From positions 98,756 through 162,755 of the forward strand of contig CAKPAW010000001.1 in the NCBI GenBank assembly GCA_934133165.1: 64,000 nucleotides of DNA, given 5' to 3'. Positions 38,578 through 59,956 of this stretch are shown here, one piece after another. The translations under genes and the position numbers were made by a program. This stretch comes from an uncultured Clostridia bacterium. Its GTDB lineage: Bacteria; Bacillota; Clostridia; TANB77; CAG-508. The notes beneath the pieces are model-generated. The model had not been told where the DNA came from and did no database searches. It worked only from the letters and a program-made list of their open reading frames with translations. Positions within the stretch are counted from its first letter, which is position 1, and every line of letters starts with the position of its first letter.

Positions 38578-40107
38578 TTAAATTGCTATTGGAATAAATA
38601 ATTGCTCTCCAATATTTATTTTGTTCTCGTCCTCTATTCCATTTATATTAGCTATGTTTGAAACTGTACTATGAAATTTCTTTGCTATATTCCATAATGT
38701 ATCTCCTGGCTTTACAAAATATATTATTAAACTATATCTTTCTGTGTTTCTTGCTTCATCTACGTTTATTTCTTGTATTACATTTATATCTCTATGGTTA
38801 GACAAATTTATAGTAAAGCCTAAATCTATTTTCATATCTATACTTTCATCTGGCATTACAATAAAGTCTTGTAGTTCTACTTCTACACTAGTTTCAATTT
38901 GTGATGTAGCTGTTACTCCCATGCAATCCATATTAAAGTTAAATGGTAGCACTAGATTTTTTGTTCCCATTCTGCTACTATTATCTGCATCAAATAAAAA
39001 GTTTAGTTCTACTTCTCCCTCAAACATTATTCTATTATTCATTATTGTTTGATTCGTAATTGTTGGCTTTACATCTACATCATATATTTTTCTGTTTTCT
39101 ATTTCTGCTATAAATTGTTTTTCTCTTATATTGCAAGTATCTTTTAAAATTTCTTTTTGAGAAATTGCTCTTATTTGTTTTTGCTTATATGTCAAGTCTA
39201 CACTTGGACTATATAAATCTTCTATTATATTTACTTGTCTTGTTTGATATACCATGCAATTTATCTCTAATTCTGCTTCTACATATATCGAATGTTCTTC
39301 TATATTATTTGGTTTTATTACTAGATTTCTTATTTGATATTTCACATCACATAAATTTTCGTCTGTTACATCTGGCATATCTATAAATCCCATTACAGGT
39401 ATTAGATTGCAAGTAGAACATATTCTATTATCTTCTGTTCTATATAATATTTTTACACATGCATCTGCCTTTACCAGTACTTTGTTATAACTTATTTTTG
39501 TCTCTCTATTAATTATATTAATATTTACCTTCATAATTTCTGCTAAATTATCTGCAGAATCTATTACTAAAGTATCTTTAGCATAGACTTTTGTAACGCC
39601 TGTTCCTAATAATGAATTTAGTTTCAAATTATTCTCTAAAAGTTGAATATCTTTAATATCATTCATTTCTTTTACAAATTCTACATCTTCATTTGAATCA
39701 ATTTTTAGTTCAATATCTATTATTGCTTTTACATTTACTTTTCTTCCGTTTATAACTCTACATTCTATAGCTTTTAAGTCTACATTGTCGTCTAACAACA
39801 TACCTGTTTTTACTACATCAAAATCTATAGTTTGTGAAAATTCTAAAGTTGTGTTTAAACTTCTTACACTTGATTCTTCATCATCTGCTAAATACATAAT
39901 ATATGCATTTATACAGCCATCTAGTCTAACCTTTCCATCCATCACTTCTTTTTTATAGATGCAAATTGTTCCATTTGTACTAATTGTATTTAATATATCT
40001 GGTTTTATATCAGGAACTACAAAATCCTCCTCTACCATGGCTGTATCTGTTTTTTGTCCTATTATTTGATTAACACATAATGTCTCTTTACTTGCTGTGA
40101 CTTGCAT
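38578..40107 (-). CDS. SipL-like spore-coat morphogenetic protein (DUF3794/SPOCS repeats plus C-terminal LysM)
   Basis: C-terminal LysM (YFVKPGDTLWNIAKKFHSTVSNIANINGI). sipL-veg-yabG gene order as in C. difficile. ATG at 40107 with a GGAGG RBS. Confidence 0.55.
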   Translation of the reverse strand: MQVTASKETLCVNQIIGQKTDTAMVEEDFVVPDIKPDILNTISTNGTICIYKKEVMDGKVRLDGCINAYIMYLADDEESSVRSLNTTLEFSQTIDFDVVKTGMLLDDNVDLKAIECRVINGRKVNVKAIIDIELKIDSNEDVEFVKEMNDIKDIQLLENNLKLNSLLGTGVTKVYAKDTLVIDSADNLAEIMKVNINIINRETKISYNKVLVKADACVKILYRTEDNRICSTCNLIPVMGFIDMPDVTDENLCDVKYQIRNLVIKPNNIEEHSIYVEAELEINCMVYQTRQVNIIEDLYSPSVDLTYKQKQIRAISQKEILKDTCNIREKQFIAEIENRKIYDVDVKPTITNQTIMNNRIMFEGEVELNFLFDADNSSRMGTKNLVLPFNFNMDCMGVTATSQIETSVEVELQDFIVMPDESIDMKIDLGFTINLSNHRDINVIQEINVDEARNTERYSLIIYFVKPGDTLWNIAKKFHSTVSNIANINGIEDENKINIGEQLFIPIAI

Positions 40108-40227
40108 GACAATATACCTCCTTAATTTTTTTATTACTAATGTATATTGCTTGGGCACAAAAAAAATTCCTAAAAATTTAGGAATTTTTTATTATTTTAT
40201 ATTTTTTACTTTTGTTCTTCTTTTATG

Positions 40228-55823: not shown

Positions 55824-58112
55824 CTATCTCCTTGAAAATTTCTTTTCTATATCATTTTTTGTCATTTTTATTGCTGTTGGTCTTCCATGTGGGCAAGTAA
55901 ATGGATTTGGAAGTCTTAGCAATTCTTCCATTAAACTATCTACTTCTTCTTTTGTAAGAGCCATATGAGCTTTTACAGCTGCTTTGCAAGCAACTGTTGC
56001 AATAAATTTTTCTTCTTTTTCTTGCTTTGCTGTTCTTGCTACTGTATTTATTTCATCTAGTGTCTCTAAGAATAATTCTTTAGTATCTAGTTCTAAACAT
56101 ATATTAGGAACTCCTGTTAATTTGATAGTGTTTTCTCCAAATTCTTCTAAAACAAATCCTGCTTTTTCAAACATATCTATATTTTCTTTTGCTATATCCA
56201 TTTCTTTATGTGTTAAATTAATAATATCTGGTAATAACATCATTTGAGAATCTTTTTCTCCATTTTTATAGTAATTTTCTTTTACTTTTTCATACATTAT
56301 TCTTTCATGAGCTGCATGTTGATCTATCATATATAATTCATTTCTTAATTCTATAATTATATATGTTGAAAAAGCAATTCCAATAAATTTATATGCAGGA
56401 ATAGCATTTTGTTCTTTTTCAAACATTGATATATTTTCACCTGTTGCTATTTCTGCATCTATTTTGTATTCTTCTGGTTCTTCTTTTATTTCTGCTTCTT
56501 TTTCTGGTGCTTTTCCAAAAACAGATGTATACATATCTTCAAATTTTTCTTCATTTGTTTCGTATTTATCATTTTGTTCACTAACTTCTCTAGCTATTTC
56601 TTGCTCTTGGTTAATTTTGTTAGTATCTATTATTTGTGTCTCATCTATTTCCATGTTTTTAGCTAGTTCTTGTTTCATTTCATCTGTTATTACTATTGTT
56701 TCATCACTAAAGTTTGCTTCTTTAGGTTCTATTGTTTCTAATATTTTAGTATTGTCTTCTTCACTTTCTTTAACTGGTTTTGTAACTTCTATATTTTCTT
56801 TTTCAGTATTTAACTCATTTGAACTTTCTTTAAATTCTTCAACAGATTTTTTCATCTCTGCCATCTTGTCCATTATATTTTCGAAACTATTTATGTTTTG
56901 TTTTGTATTATTTTCTTGTTTTCTTGCTTCGTATATGTCTCTCATAATATTGGGTTCATTTGAGTTTTCTATTTCTTCTTTTTCTACTTTTTCCTCTTTT
57001 TTTGATAAAAATCTTGAAAACAAACCTTTAGATTTTTCTGGTACTTGTATATTTTCTAATACGTTACTTTTTATTTCTATTTGATTGTCTTTTACCTCTT
57101 TTTCTTCTTGAACTCCTACCAAATCATTTTTTAATAAAGTATCTTTTATTGCATGATATACTGCTTTAAAAACTTTTTGTTCTTCTTCGAAACGCACTTC
57201 TAGTTTTGCTGGATGAACATTAACATCTACTTTATGTGGATCAATTTCAATATTCAAAACTAAAAATCCAAATTTTCCAACTGTAATCATTCCTTTATAT
57301 GCCTGTTCTGCACTACTTGTCAATGTTTTATCTTTTACATATCTTTTATTTACAAAGAATAATTGGTTTGAACGATTTGAACGAGCAATAATAGGTCTTC
57401 CAACTACACCTGTTATTTTAATATCTTCATATTCATAATTAACTTCTAATATATTCTCTGTAATTTCTTTTCCATAAATACCATATATAACATTTTTAAT
57501 GTCACCATTTCCAGAAGTTTGAATAATAGTTTTTCCTGAGCTTATCAATTTTATTGCTATTTCTGGATGTATTAATGCTATTCTAGTCATAACATCTTCT
57601 ATATAGCCTGACTCTGTAAAGTCTTTTTTTAGGAATTTATAACGAACTGGAGTATTATAAAAAAGATTTTCTATAGTAATACTTGTTCCATCTGGGCAAC
57701 CTGTTTCTTCATTTTTTAGAATATTTCCACCCTCTACAATTACTTCATGTCCAATTTCTTGATCTCTAGTTTTAGATTTCATACTTACTTTAGCTATTGC
57801 CGCAATACTTGCTAAAGCCTCACCTCTAAACCCCATAGATTTTACAGTTTCTAAGTCACTTGCTACTCTTATTTTGCTTGTTGCATGTCTCTCAAATGCA
57901 ATTTCCATATCATCTGGCATAATTCCTTTTCCATTGTCTGTTACACGAATGTAAGAAATTCCGCCATTTTTTATTTCTACGCTAATATTATTTGCTCCTG
58001 CATCTATTGAATTTTCTACTAATTCTTTTACTACAGATGCTGGCCTTTCAATTACTTCACCTGCTGCTATTTTATTTATTGTTAAGTCATCTAATAATAC
58101 TATATTTCCCAC
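55824..58112 (-). CDS. mutL: DNA mismatch repair protein MutL (with long E/K-rich linker)
   Basis: INKIAAGEVIERPASVVKELVENSIDAG GHKL ATPase motif and C-terminal dimerisation domain. GTG start at 58112 with a GGAGGAAG RBS; the track ORF is extended upstream. Confidence 0.9.
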   Translation of the reverse strand: MGNIVLLDDLTINKIAAGEVIERPASVVKELVENSIDAGANNISVEIKNGGISYIRVTDNGKGIMPDDMEIAFERHATSKIRVASDLETVKSMGFRGEALASIAAIAKVSMKSKTRDQEIGHEVIVEGGNILKNEETGCPDGTSITIENLFYNTPVRYKFLKKDFTESGYIEDVMTRIALIHPEIAIKLISSGKTIIQTSGNGDIKNVIYGIYGKEITENILEVNYEYEDIKITGVVGRPIIARSNRSNQLFFVNKRYVKDKTLTSSAEQAYKGMITVGKFGFLVLNIEIDPHKVDVNVHPAKLEVRFEEEQKVFKAVYHAIKDTLLKNDLVGVQEEKEVKDNQIEIKSNVLENIQVPEKSKGLFSRFLSKKEEKVEKEEIENSNEPNIMRDIYEARKQENNTKQNINSFENIMDKMAEMKKSVEEFKESSNELNTEKENIEVTKPVKESEEDNTKILETIEPKEANFSDETIVITDEMKQELAKNMEIDETQIIDTNKINQEQEIAREVSEQNDKYETNEEKFEDMYTSVFGKAPEKEAEIKEEPEEYKIDAEIATGENISMFEKEQNAIPAYKFIGIAFSTYIIIELRNELYMIDQHAAHERIMYEKVKENYYKNGEKDSQMMLLPDIINLTHKEMDIAKENIDMFEKAGFVLEEFGENTIKLTGVPNICLELDTKELFLETLDEINTVARTAKQEKEEKFIATVACKAAVKAHMALTKEEVDSLMEELLRLPNPFTCPHGRPTAIKMTKNDIEKKFSRR

Positions 58113-58338
58113 GTTTCTTCCTCCGTTTTTTATTTTTATATACTTTTTTAGAATTATATCATTAAATGTTTGAATTTGTATAGTTTTTTCAAAAAAATAG
58201 TAAAAAAATATTATCTCATTAAATATCTGTAACAATTTACTTTTTTGAAACATTGTAACACTTTTTTATTTTTAGAATAGTATATACCATACAAAAGAAC
58301 AAACGACGTAACAAAAATTTATATAGGAGGTACTTATA

Positions 58339-58449
58339 ATGAGAAATTGTTGTTGTAACAGTGAAATACTTTGGTTCATTATCCTATTTTTACTACTTTT
58401 CTGTGGCTGTGGAAACAATAACTGCGGATGTGGCAATGGATGTTGCTAG
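58339..58449 (+). CDS. Tiny Cys/Gly-rich transmembrane peptide, 36 aa (YjcZ/tiny-TM-like)
   Basis: MRNCCCNSEILWFIILFLLLFCGCGNNNCGCGNGCC. AGGAGG RBS 6 nt upstream. Not in the ORF track (under 60 aa). Confidence 0.55.
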   Translation: MRNCCCNSEILWFIILFLLLFCGCGNNNCGCGNGCC

Positions 58450-58506
58450 TTTCTCTTAGGTAAATGTCAAAGGTTCAAAGTTTACTTTTGAAAGGAGGGA
58501 AATATT

Positions 58507-58635
58507 ATGCCAGAAAATAGAGGTTGTGGATGTGGTTTCGGTAATGGATGTGACTGCATTTGGATTATAATCATATTAATATTAATATTCTGTTGTTGTG
58601 GAAATAACAACTGTGGCGGTTGCGGATGCTGCTAG
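58507..58635 (+). CDS. Tiny Cys/Gly-rich transmembrane peptide, 42 aa (paralog)
   Basis: MPENRGCGCGFGNGCDCIWIIIILILIFCCCGNNNCGGCGCC. AAGGAGGG RBS. Hairpin terminator at about 58655-58685. Confidence 0.55.
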   Translation: MPENRGCGCGFGNGCDCIWIIIILILIFCCCGNNNCGGCGCC

Positions 58636-58689
58636 AATTTAATTCTTCAAACATAAAAAGCGATAGAAGTTTTCTATCGCTTTTATTAT

Positions 58690-59956
58690 TTAATTCATTC
58701 CTGCTGTATACCCTGTAGAATATGCAATTTGAAGATTGAAGCCCCCTGTATACGCATCTACATCAATTATTTCTCCTGCAAAATATAATCCCTCTACAAT
58801 TTTAGATTCCATTGTTTTTGGGTTTATTTCCTTTATGCTAATTCCTCCAGCTGTAACTATTGCCTCTTCTATTGGTCTGAAACCTTTTATTTCTATTTGA
58901 AATCCTTTCAATGTTTTTAATAATTCTAATCTTTCTTCTTTTGTGACAGAATTTATTTTCTTTTCTCCATCTAGTTTTGCAAATTCTAAAACTGGCAAAA
59001 TCATTTTTGATGGTAGTAAATCTTGAAGTCCATTTTGTAAATCTTTATTTTTATATTTTTCAAAATCTCTTTTTATTCTATTGTCTAGTTTTGTTTCATC
59101 TAAAGCTGGTTTTAAATCTATTTTTAATGCAATTTTGTTCTCTCTAAATTTTTCTTCTATATTTTTGTATCTTAATAAATGTGCCGATGAGCTAAGTATT
59201 GTAGGTCCTGATACTCCAAAATGTGTAAATAGCATTTCTCCAAAATCTTCATAAATAGTCTTGTTAGTTTCTTTATCTATTAACGTTATTCCTACATTTT
59301 TTAAACTTAACCCTTGCATTTGTTTGCAAAGTTTTAATGACTTTTCTGATACTGTTAGTGGTACAAGTGATGGTTTTATTTTTTCTATGCTATGACCTAA
59401 TTCTTTTACCATTTCATAGCCATCTCCCGTAGAACCTGTTGCAGGATAGCTTTTTCCTCCTGTTGTTAAAATAATTTTGTCTGCCTTTATTTTTTCTCCA
59501 TTTTCCAAAATAACCCCTATAGCTCTTTTTTCCCTATCAACTTCTTCTACTAAAATTTTCTTCACTTTCGTATTGGTTTTTATCTGGACTTTTAAGCTAT
59601 TTAATTTTCTTATAAGTGCATTTAATACATCTTGTGAATGATCAGACACAGGGAATATTCTATTTCCTCTTTCTTCCTTTACTTCTATATGTTGGTCTTT
59701 TAATAAATTTATTATATCTTCATTTGTACAATTTTGAAAACTACTATATAAAAATCTTCCATTACCAGGAATGTTTGAAATAAATTCTTCCATAGGAATA
59801 GAAGATGTAATATTACACCTTCCTTTTCCTGTTATTAATAATTTTCTTCCTAAGCTATTCATTTTTTCAAGTATTGTTACACTATTTCCACTTTCAGCAC
59901 TACTAATTGCTGCCATCATTCCTGCTGGTCCACCGACCTATAACAATTACTTTCAT
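58690..59956 (-). pseudogene. BaiN/HI0933-like NAD(P)/FAD-dependent oxidoreductase interrupted by a 1-nt insertion in the GxGxxG motif
   Basis: ATG at 59956 (RBS AAGGAGG) reads MKVIVIGRWTSRNDGSN*. The main ORF (MMAAISSAESG..., 58690-59919) is in another frame. Deleting the G at 59935 gives MKVIVIGGGPAGMMAAISSAESG, a canonical Rossmann dinucleotide-binding N-terminus. Confidence 0.6.

What the first reader, a model, noticed from the sequence alone, without database searches (positions are those of the whole stretch)
58260..58690. Two tandem unannotated tiny Cys/Gly-rich transmembrane peptide genes
Between mutL and the FAD-oxidoreductase gene lie two small ORFs absent from the ORF track: a 36-aa ORF at 58339-58449 and a 42-aa ORF at 58507-58635. 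Each has a strong SD (AGGAGG, AAGGAGGG) and the pair is followed by a terminator. Each peptide is a CxC/CG-rich N-terminus, a roughly 17-residue hydrophobic core and a CGNNNCG(G)CGCC tail (9-10 Cys each). The architecture matches the poorly characterised tiny-TM/YjcZ-like sporulation peptide family, but these copies have unusually high Cys content. A CATACA element at 58288-58293 resembles sporulation-sigma -10 boxes. Alternatives are metal- or redox-binding membrane peptides, or RiPP-like precursors without an adjacent modification enzyme.
Basis: seen in the sequence. Interest (0 to 1): 0.6.

Follow-up and report, generated by a model that had tools for sequence, protein, structure and literature searches.

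The report
Paired tiny cysteine-rich sporulation membrane peptides
Two real but unannotated genes encode 36- and 42-residue cysteine-rich membrane peptides of an unnamed Clostridia-wide family whose conserved promoter looks like those of late spore-coat genes, so they are probably small spore-envelope components that gene callers routinely miss.

Summary
ORF1 (58339-58449, 36 aa, 9 Cys) and ORF2 (58507-58635, 42 aa, 11 Cys) each have a strong SD and share a terminator (58656-58684).

Both are genuine genes. Homologues are under purifying selection (pN/pS 0.12-0.38, all indels in-frame). The ORF1-type/ORF2-type pair recurs divergent from mutL in several lineages, and fused two-helix versions exist. 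A profile search finds 112 clusters, none with a functional name and none matching Pfam or NCBIfam.

All 18 loci examined carry GTAAC(A/C)-N14/15-(C/A)ATAnnnT(A/G) 55-93 nt upstream of the first peptide gene. This applies even to distant members in unrelated contexts. The motif matches experimentally mapped sigma-K promoters of C. difficile (cotE, cdeC) and not sigma-E promoters. The window also encodes SipL, so the organism forms endospores.

The peptides resemble YjcZ in architecture and predicted regulation but fail its HMMs and lack its invariant core. Profile-profile similarity barely exceeds a reversed control.

Best reading: late mother-cell peptides anchored by one helix in the spore envelope, with Cys/Gly/Asn flanks for disulfide or metal cross-linking. 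Expression and function are inferred, not shown. No conserved neighbouring maturase supports a RiPP role.

The parts
58255..58261 (+). -35 element GTAACAC (sigma-K core 'AC' at 58258-58259)
   Evidence: GTAAC(A/C) is conserved at the same spacing in 15 of 18 family loci. GTAAC occurs in the -35 region of 8/25 mapped C. difficile sigma-K promoters and 0/47 sigma-E promoters.
58276..58284 (+). -10 element AATAGTATA, the (C/A)ATAnnnTA mother-cell type, 16 nt after the AC
   Evidence: The motif AC-N16/17-[C/A]ATAnnnT[A/G] is present in 18/18 family loci. It occurs in 4.7% of other gene upstream regions and 5% of shuffles. C. difficile cotE has GTAACAC..AATAGAAT.
58288..58293 (+). CATACA, the predicted transcription start region (not a -10 box)
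   Evidence: It lies 4-9 nt after the end of the -10. In C. difficile the mapped sigma-K start sites lie 5-7 nt after the -10 octamer. The element is only semi-conserved (CATACA, CATACC, CATAAA, TATACA).
58325..58330 (+). Shine-Dalgarno AGGAGG of ORF1
   Evidence: Read from the sequence. It lies 8 nt before the ATG.
58339..58449 (+). ORF1, a 36-aa peptide (ORF1-type: short N-flank, xEILWFIILFLLLF helix, CGCGNNN.. tail; 9 Cys)
   Evidence: P0056-P0067 homologues. The same gene sits in the same position in L015-17, L018-20, L021/22 and L025/26. pN/pS is 0.12-0.26 against the window.
58492..58499 (+). Shine-Dalgarno AAGGAGGG of ORF2
   Evidence: Read from the sequence. It lies 7 nt before the ATG. 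There is no terminator in the 57-nt spacer, so the two genes probably form an operon.
58507..58635 (+). ORF2, a 42-aa peptide (ORF2-type: MPENRG, CG/FG flank, DCIWIIILILIF helix, CCCGNNN..GCC tail; 11 Cys)
   Evidence: Invariant residues are M1, W19, I21, C29, C30, G32 and C41. pN/pS is 0.23-0.38. AlphaFold2 predicts a single helix at residues 15-30.
58656..58684 (.). Bidirectional intrinsic terminator shared with the convergent oxidoreductase gene
   Evidence: 13-bp stem, 3-nt loop, T-runs on both strands. Homologous loci also end in a hairpin terminator.

Best explanation
The locus is a two-gene operon for paralogous tiny peptides. Each peptide has one very hydrophobic helix of about 15 residues flanked by uncharged Cys/Gly/Asn-rich segments. 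The promoter is of the sigma-K type, so the peptides would be made in the mother cell late in sporulation, when coat and exosporium proteins are made.

Inferred mechanism: the helix anchors the peptides in a membrane that faces the developing spore, or buries them in the hydrophobic coat. The juxtamembrane CCC-G and terminal GCC clusters then link the peptides to each other, and to other Cys-rich envelope proteins, by disulfides or metal-thiolate bridges. In this way they would contribute to envelope assembly or hardening.

They work like YjcZ-type sporulation peptides but form a separate, so far unnamed, Clostridia-wide sequence family.

Shown here: the genes are real, conserved and paired, and the promoter motif is conserved. 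Inferred: sigma-K dependence, location and cross-linking.
For: Coding:
- pN/pS is 0.12-0.38, all indels are in-frame, and L001 vs L002 differ by 10 synonymous and 0 non-synonymous changes.

Family:
- 43 and 35 hits in two searches.
- 112 clusters at E<=1e-3 among 1.84 billion representatives.

Pairing:
- An ORF1-type gene followed by an ORF2-type gene lies next to mutL in the window (identical ENA record L014), L015-17, L018-20, L021/22 and L025/26.
- Eight miscalled long ORFs read from the alternative frame of an ORF1-type gene into ORF2.
- Fused two-helix proteins exist: P0042, P0172, L004, L006, L008, L012.

Promoter:
- 18/18 loci match the relaxed motif, including distant members beside unrelated genes.
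- 9/18 match the textbook AC-N16/17-CATAnnnTA, against 2/193 control upstream regions and 0.8% of shuffles.
- Near-identity to TSS-mapped C. difficile sigma-K promoters of cotE and CD1067 (CD1067 is cdeC by my own knowledge).
- GTAAC is found in 8/25 sigma-K and 0/47 sigma-E promoters.
- The rule 'sigma-K -35 is AC, sigma-E -35 is ATA' comes from PMC3789822.

Spore former:
- SipL is encoded at 38578-40158.

Analogy:
- B. subtilis yjcZ is in the sigma-K regulon (PMC517825).
- A B. atrophaeus YjcZ gene carries the strict motif, and B. thuringiensis has three tandem YjcZ genes.
- In C. difficile, sigma-K-dependent proteins of unknown function are mostly spore-associated, and Cys-rich CdeC/CdeM build the exosporium (PMC6101409).

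Structure:
- One helix at residues 15-30 with disordered flanks.
Against: - No expression data are available. The promoter can also be read as a weak sigma-A promoter (GTAACA-17/18-TAnnAT, 4-5 of 6 matches in each hexamer).
- The relaxed motif was defined after seeing the data.
- The hydrophobic run is short (11-13 residues, about 15 with flanking Cys) for a bilayer-spanning helix.
- AlphaFold2 confidence is low (mean pLDDT 60).
- Some distant relatives have no Cys at all (P0173, P0166, P0181, P0183, P0191). Cys chemistry therefore cannot be the function of the whole superfamily.
- Nothing shows localisation to the spore.
- The organisms of most loci are uncultured, so spore formation is shown only indirectly.
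Confidence: 0.55

Rival explanations
1. The peptides are membrane-anchored metal- or redox-active (metallothionein-like or thiol-buffer). The CxC, CC and CGC clusters on both sides of the helix would bind Zn, Cu or Fe, or sense oxidation. This could load, sequester or sense metals or oxygen in the maturing spore of an anaerobe. It is compatible with sigma-K timing.
For: Cys makes up 25-26% of residues, in CxC/CC/CGC patterns typical of metal-thiolate proteins. The juxtamembrane CCC-G and terminal GCC are the best-conserved positions. The C. difficile sigma-K regulon includes feoAB and a cation efflux protein. The cytoplasm of an anaerobe is reducing, so the thiols would be free.
Against: There is no match to any metallothionein or metal-binding family in Pfam or NCBIfam. 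Cys-free relatives exist. Cys spacing in the flanks is variable, with frequent indels. That fits cross-linking or low-complexity regions better than a defined metal site.
Confidence: 0.2
2. The peptides are membrane-active (holin-like or type I toxin-like). Produced late, they would permeabilise the mother-cell membrane and help mother-cell lysis and spore release.
For: They are tiny hydrophobic single-helix peptides resembling type I toxins and small holins. One YjcZ-family protein is annotated 'putative type I toxin' by a depositor (P0233). Sigma-K timing coincides with mother-cell lysis.
Against: The Rfam scan of the region finds only sub-threshold hits on the terminator hairpin, and antisense promoters were not examined specifically. 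There is no charged C-terminal tail as in most type I toxins. Strong conservation of the Cys clusters is not explained. There is no match to PADLOC or to toxin families, and no plasmid or phage copies.
Confidence: 0.1
3. The peptides are precursors of ribosomally synthesised, post-translationally modified peptides (for example sactipeptide- or ranthipeptide-like). The modifying enzymes would be encoded elsewhere.
For: They are short and Cys-rich, and their N-terminus (MPENRG) is highly conserved. Clostridia encode many radical-SAM peptide maturases (own knowledge).
Against: No maturase, protease or exporter is conserved next to the genes in any of about 12 lineages. The neighbours are mutL, groEL, PEPCK, a KAP NTPase, SPL, FtsZ, MltG-like, ClpC and others. 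There is no match to SCIFF or other precursor models. The central 12-residue hydrophobic helix is the most conserved part, which is not typical of a leader/core layout.
Confidence: 0.05
4. The ORFs are not expressed as proteins and the conserved feature is an RNA or DNA element.
For: The ORFs are very short, no exact copy is in protein databases, and gene callers skip them.
Against: The substitution pattern is codon-wise (pN/pS 0.12-0.38, in-frame indels only). Strong SDs sit at the correct spacing in every lineage. There is no Rfam match other than sub-threshold hits on the terminator hairpin. Protein similarity persists where DNA identity is about 70%.
Confidence: 0.03

Closest known systems
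YjcZ family sporulation proteins (Pfam PF09680 / TIGR01732 'tiny TM' proteins of Bacillales)
   Same: Both are 30-60 aa with a Gly-rich variable N-flank, one extremely hydrophobic helix and a short tail that often carries C/G/Y. Both are often in tandem copies (three in B. thuringiensis). B. subtilis yjcZ is in the sigma-K regulon (PMC517825), and a sigma-K motif lies upstream of a B. atrophaeus copy. Function is unknown in both.
   Different: There is no HMM match. The invariant YjcZ core FALLVVLFILLIIVG is replaced by DCIWIIILILIFCCCG or EILWFIILFLLLFCGCG. hhalign gives 65% probability, and a reversed control scores nearly as well. The flanks are Cys/Asn-rich rather than Gly/Tyr-rich. The conserved MPENRG N-terminus is absent from YjcZ. 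The family is found in Clostridia rather than Bacillales.
Cysteine-rich spore-surface morphogenetic proteins of Clostridia (C. difficile CdeC, CdeM)
   Same: Both are Cys-rich. Both have sigma-K-type promoters: the CD1067 (cdeC) promoter GTAACA..CATAGTAT is almost the same as the family consensus. CdeC and CdeM build the exosporium and are thought to self-assemble (PMC6101409, PMC7677010).
   Different: CdeC and CdeM are much larger soluble proteins without a hydrophobic helix. No sequence relationship was detected: the family profile found only tiny peptides.
Small mother-cell sporulation peptides SpoVM (26 aa) and CmpA (37 aa) of B. subtilis
   Same: These are tiny mother-cell-made peptides that act at the forespore surface in coat and cortex assembly (PMC10730256).
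   Different: SpoVM and CmpA are sigma-E-dependent (early). SpoVM is an amphipathic surface helix, not a fully hydrophobic one. Neither is Cys-rich. There is no sequence similarity.
SCIFF / ranthipeptide precursors of Clostridia
   Same: These are short Cys-rich peptides that are widespread in Clostridia.
   Different: SCIFF peptides have no hydrophobic helix and are encoded next to a radical-SAM maturase. Here there is no model match and no conserved neighbouring enzyme.

Membership tests
YjcZ family (PF09680 / TIGR01732) | Match to the family HMM | tested here: not met
   Neither peptide, nor any of 43 relatives, matches PF09680 or TIGR01732 at E<=10. Genuine YjcZ proteins in the same database do carry PF09680.
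YjcZ family (PF09680 / TIGR01732) | Invariant hydrophobic core F-x-L-x-V-V-L-F-I-L-L-x-I-x-G | tested here: not met
   In alignment A3 of 36 YjcZ proteins, F, V, V, L, F, I, L, L, I and G are invariant. The window peptides have IWIIIILILIFCCCG and ILWFIILFLLLFCGCG.
YjcZ family (PF09680 / TIGR01732) | Detectable remote homology (profile-profile) | tested here: inconclusive
   hhalign of A2 vs A3 gives probability 65%, score 23.3, over 21 columns. Reversed A2 scores 19.0 and column shuffles average 7.6. Most of the signal comes from the hydrophobic run.
YjcZ family (PF09680 / TIGR01732) | Architecture: under 60 aa, Gly-rich flank, one hydrophobic helix, short tail | tested here: met
   The peptides are 36 and 42 aa. 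AlphaFold2 predicts a single helix at residues 15-30.
YjcZ family (PF09680 / TIGR01732) | Late mother-cell (sigma-K) expression in an endospore former | not testable with these tools
   Only the promoter motif could be tested. It is sigma-K-like in 18/18 loci, and SipL is in the window. Expression itself needs RNA data.
Sigma-K regulon (promoter class) | -35 'AC' and -10 'CATA---TA' 16-17 nt apart, with no 'ATA' at -35 | tested here: met
   The window has AC (58258-9), N16, then AATAGTATA. The first base is A rather than C, as in the C. difficile cotE, CD0332, CD1065 and CD2399 promoters. The strict form occurs in 9/18 family loci.
SCIFF / radical-SAM-modified RiPP precursors | Precursor model match and adjacent maturase gene | tested here: not met
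   There is no NCBIfam match. Neighbours vary and include no radical-SAM or other maturase.
Bacterial lipoproteins | Lipobox [LVI][ASTVI][GAS]C after an uncharged h-region that follows K/R | tested here: not met
   This was read from the sequence. ORF1 has F-C-G-C and ORF2 has I-F-C, neither of which fits. E9 and D16 interrupt the region after the only Arg.
Type I toxins | Overlapping antisense RNA antitoxin, and toxicity on expression | not tested
   No known sRNA family reaches its threshold in 57900-58900. Antisense transcription and toxicity need experiments.
Metallothioneins | Match to a metallothionein family, or a fixed Cys pattern that binds metal | tested here: not met
   There is no Pfam match. 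Cys spacing in the flanks varies through indels. Metal binding itself was not testable.

The most novel reading that the evidence does not exclude
These peptides define a new Clostridia-wide class of late-sporulation membrane peptides. Their dense thiol clusters on both faces of a membrane would act as an oxygen- or metal-triggered latch. They would stay reduced inside the anaerobic mother cell and cross-link the outer spore membrane to the Cys-rich coat or exosporium once the spore meets oxidants. The paired and fused forms would reflect an obligate hetero-oligomer.
Probability: 0.12. Interest if true: 0.75.

Novelty: new variant of a known kind. Interest (0 to 1): 0.5.

Why it matters
Spore envelopes of anaerobic Clostridia are poorly understood compared with Bacillus, and most of their coat and exosporium components have no Bacillus counterpart. 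This is a conserved, paired, extremely Cys-rich peptide family with a promoter of the same type as cotE and cdeC. It has no curated family in Pfam or NCBIfam, no functional name from any source, and is frequently not called as a gene at all. If it is a spore-envelope component, it adds a missing small-protein layer to models of spore assembly, hydrophobicity and resistance in gut and pathogenic Clostridia. It also gives a testable functional handle on the equally uncharacterised YjcZ-type peptides. More generally, it shows that tiny genes next to a housekeeping gene such as mutL are systematically missed or mis-called: several database entries are read-throughs from the wrong frame.

Tried and rejected
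- Pfam, NCBIfam and PADLOC scans of the two peptides, and Pfam and NCBIfam scans of 43 relatives, gave only chance hits with E>0.05.
- A PDB sequence search with the family profile found nothing.
- Rfam on 57900-58900 gave only sub-threshold hits on the terminator hairpin.
- A literature search for the peptide motifs (MPENRG, WFIILFLLLF, FCCCGNN, LFFIIIFLLLF) and for TIGR01732/PF09680 found nothing relevant. A 2023 review of small proteins in Gram-positive bacteria does not mention YjcZ or SscA, and the passages it returned on sporulation cover SpoVM, CmpA, MciZ and SASPs.
It returned only 10, mostly distant, loci, so taxonomic breadth is under-sampled.
- The viral contig scan and plasmid tblastn found no homologues.
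- A sigma-E reading of CATACA was rejected. There is no ATA-type -35 at the right spacing, and the element is not conserved as a -10.
- A lipoprotein reading was rejected because there is no lipobox.
- The dual- or opposite-topology idea suggested by the fused forms found no support. Both types carry an acidic residue plus Trp at the N-terminal helix boundary and have similar charge distributions, so it is left open.
- The organism could not be named.
Full report
**1. What is in the sequence**

The window (26.7% GC) has a 226-nt AT-rich gap between mutL and ORF1.
- mutL is on the minus strand at 55824-58112. Its true start is a GTG giving MGNIVLLDD, 762 aa, as called in the identical ENA record L014.
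- ORF1 is at 58339-58449 (36 aa) and ORF2 at 58507-58635 (42 aa).
- A hairpin terminator at 58656-58684 is shared with the convergent HI0933-like FAD oxidoreductase gene at 58690-59919.
- Both ORFs have strong SDs at canonical spacing. The 57-nt spacer has no terminator, so an operon is likely.
- The peptides have 9 and 11 Cys and only 2-3 charged residues. Each has an unbroken hydrophobic run (ILWFIILFLLLF and IWIIIILILIF).
- AlphaFold2 with a 28-sequence alignment predicts one helix at residues 15-30 of ORF2, with disordered flanks. Confidence is low (mean pLDDT 60).

**2. They are real genes of a conserved family**

Two searches of a 5.8-billion-cluster protein database returned 43 ORF2-type proteins. 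Their consensus is MPENRGCGCGFGxxDCIWIIILILIFCCCGNNNxGCC.

The searches also returned ORF1-type proteins (MxxCCNxEILWFIILFLLLFCGCGN...). A longer third type reads MPEEGRNCGCGCGNNGILGGLFGGxGCNSEILFFIIVFLLLFTNCGCGRN.

A profile search of 1.84 billion representatives found 112 clusters at E<=1e-3.

Codon-level comparison of the window genes with homologous loci gives pN/pS of 0.12-0.38. Every indel is a multiple of three. One pair of loci differs by 10 synonymous and no non-synonymous changes.

None of the listed proteins has a functional name or a Pfam domain; the few that are named are called 'hypothetical protein'. The window's own peptides are absent from a 15-billion-protein collection, although the neighbouring genes are present. 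The genes are therefore frequently missed. Several database entries are artefactual long ORFs that begin in the wrong frame of an ORF1-type gene and read into ORF2.

**3. Pairing and synteny**

The arrangement 'mutL, then divergently an ORF1-type gene followed by an ORF2-type gene' recurs in four further lineages: L015-17, L018-20, L021/22 and L025/26.
- A single ORF2-type gene sits beside mutL in L001-3.
- A single ORF2-type gene sits beside an integrase gene and groEL in L023/24.
- The downstream neighbour varies: groEL, PEPCK, a KAP NTPase, spore photoproduct lyase, or the oxidoreductase.
- Distant members are found in contigs labelled Eubacterium, Ruminococcus, Oscillospiraceae, Faecalimonas and 'Clostridia bacterium'. 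They lie beside unrelated housekeeping genes.
- Many of these distant members are fusions of two units into one 65-90-aa two-helix protein.
- No enzyme is conserved next to the genes.
- There are no phage or plasmid copies.

**4. The promoter**

Aligning the regions upstream of the first peptide gene shows GTAAC(A/C), then 14-15 nt, then (C/A)ATAnnnT(A/G). The rest of the intergenic sequence is not conserved.
- This motif is present in 18 of 18 loci, 55-93 nt before the ATG.
- The textbook sigma-K form AC-N16/17-CATAnnnTA is present in 9 of 18. It occurs in 2 of 193 upstream regions of other genes in the same DNA and in 0.8% of shuffles.
- Caveats: some of the 18 loci are close relatives, and the relaxed form was defined after looking at the data.

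Saujet et al. [quoted passage not shown] Their Table S7 of TSS-mapped promoters includes:
- cotE: GTAACAC...AATAGAAT
- CD1067 (cdeC): GTAACA...CATAGTAT
- cotA, CD1891 and CD3613, which are similar.

These are essentially the family consensus, including the AATA variant seen in the window. GTAAC occurs in 8 of 25 sigma-K promoters and 0 of 47 sigma-E promoters. The relaxed motif occurs in 10 of 25 and 0 of 47 respectively.

In the window the elements are GTAACAC at 58255-58261 and AATAGTATA at 58276-58284.

The same bases can be read as a weak sigma-A promoter (GTAACA-17-TAGTAT). However, TTG is never present at -35 and CA always precedes the TA of the -10, which favours sigma-K.

The window also encodes SipL (three SPOCS repeats plus LysM). 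SipL is the clostridial coat morphogenetic protein, so the organism is an endospore former.

**5. Relation to YjcZ**

Genuine YjcZ proteins were retrieved with a query built on the YjcZ core consensus recalled from memory; nearly all listed hits carry PF09680. They have an invariant core F-x-L-x-VVLFILL-x-I-x-G.
- The window peptides and 43 relatives do not match PF09680 or TIGR01732 at E<=10.
- Profile-profile comparison gives 65% probability (score 23.3). A reversed-sequence control scores 19.0, so homology is not shown.

The functional resemblance is nevertheless close.
- Size and architecture are the same.
- Tandem copies occur in both: three YjcZ genes in a row in B. thuringiensis.
- Both show sigma-K control. 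B. subtilis yjcZ is in the sigma-K regulon (PMC517825), and the strict motif lies upstream of a B. atrophaeus YjcZ gene.
- One Cys-free relative has Gly/Tyr-rich flanks like YjcZ (P0173).

**6. Mechanism**

The committed reading is a late mother-cell peptide pair. Each peptide is anchored by one helix in a spore-facing membrane or in the coat. The Cys/Gly/Asn flanks cross-link by disulfide or metal-thiolate bonds to each other and to other Cys-rich envelope proteins.

Supporting context comes from C. difficile. Sigma-K-dependent unknown proteins there are mostly spore-associated. Cys-rich CdeC and CdeM are exosporium morphogenetic proteins (PMC6101409).

What is shown: coding, conservation, pairing and fusion, and the promoter motif. 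What is inferred: sigma-K dependence, location and chemistry.

Rivals, in order of likelihood:
- a metal- or redox-binding role, which is compatible with the above;
- a lytic or holin-like role;
- a RiPP precursor, which is unlikely because no maturase is conserved nearby;
- a non-coding element, which the substitution pattern excludes.

**7. Verdict**

This is an unnamed, frequently uncalled family that works like a known but itself uncharacterised kind of peptide. It is of moderate interest.

Noticed in passing
window 38578-40158 (-): A 526-aa protein with three SipL/SPOCS repeats and a C-terminal LysM domain. It is the clostridial coat morphogenetic protein SipL, which marks the organism as an endospore former.
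   Followed up: partly
window 55824-58253 (-): The longest mutL ORF (809 aa) over-extends. Homologues and the ENA gene call indicate a GTG start at 58112 (762 aa). mutL here is not preceded by mutS. Its central region is a long Glu/Lys/Asn-rich low-complexity insert of variable length between lineages: called gene products range from 720 to 858 aa.
   Followed up: partly
L006 (contig CAVKUD010000016.1) and L008 (JAMPBO010000003.1): Two-helix family members occur on contigs binned as Senegalimassilia (an actinobacterium) and Bacteroides. L006 has 41% GC, which by my recollection is far below the GC content of Senegalimassilia (about 60%). The contigs are therefore probably mis-binned Clostridia DNA.
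   Followed up: partly
L001-L003, about 40-60 nt upstream of the peptide ATG: In the lineage with a single ORF2-type gene, the predicted 5' UTR contains a conserved small hairpin (gcgattgagaaatcgc) that other lineages lack. It may be an mRNA-stabilising 5' stem-loop.
   Followed up: no
L019 4215-5237 (+): In one lineage the gene immediately downstream of the peptide pair, on the same strand, is spore photoproduct lyase (PF20903), another sporulation-related gene.
   Followed up: no
L031 1206-1629 (B. thuringiensis AE017355.1): Three YjcZ-family genes (36, 34 and 42 aa) lie in tandem, each with its own SD and a TTG start. No sigma-K motif was found within 160 nt of the first gene, unlike the B. 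atrophaeus copy.
   Followed up: partly
P0113, P0115, P0118, P0126, P0131, P0133, P0139 (database proteins): Public gene calls of 82-121 aa (P0113, P0115, P0118, P0126, P0131, P0133, P0139) start in the wrong frame of an ORF1-type gene (translated as ..FYGSLSYSYYFSVAV..) and run into the ORF2-type gene. This is a systematic annotation artefact at this locus.
   Followed up: partly
P0166, P0181, P0183, P0191, P0152, P0159: A Cys-free two-helix subfamily repeats the unit ..SEILFFILVFLLLFYD.. twice and ends exactly at ..LFY. It is related to the helix of the family but lacks the thiol-rich flanks.
   Followed up: no
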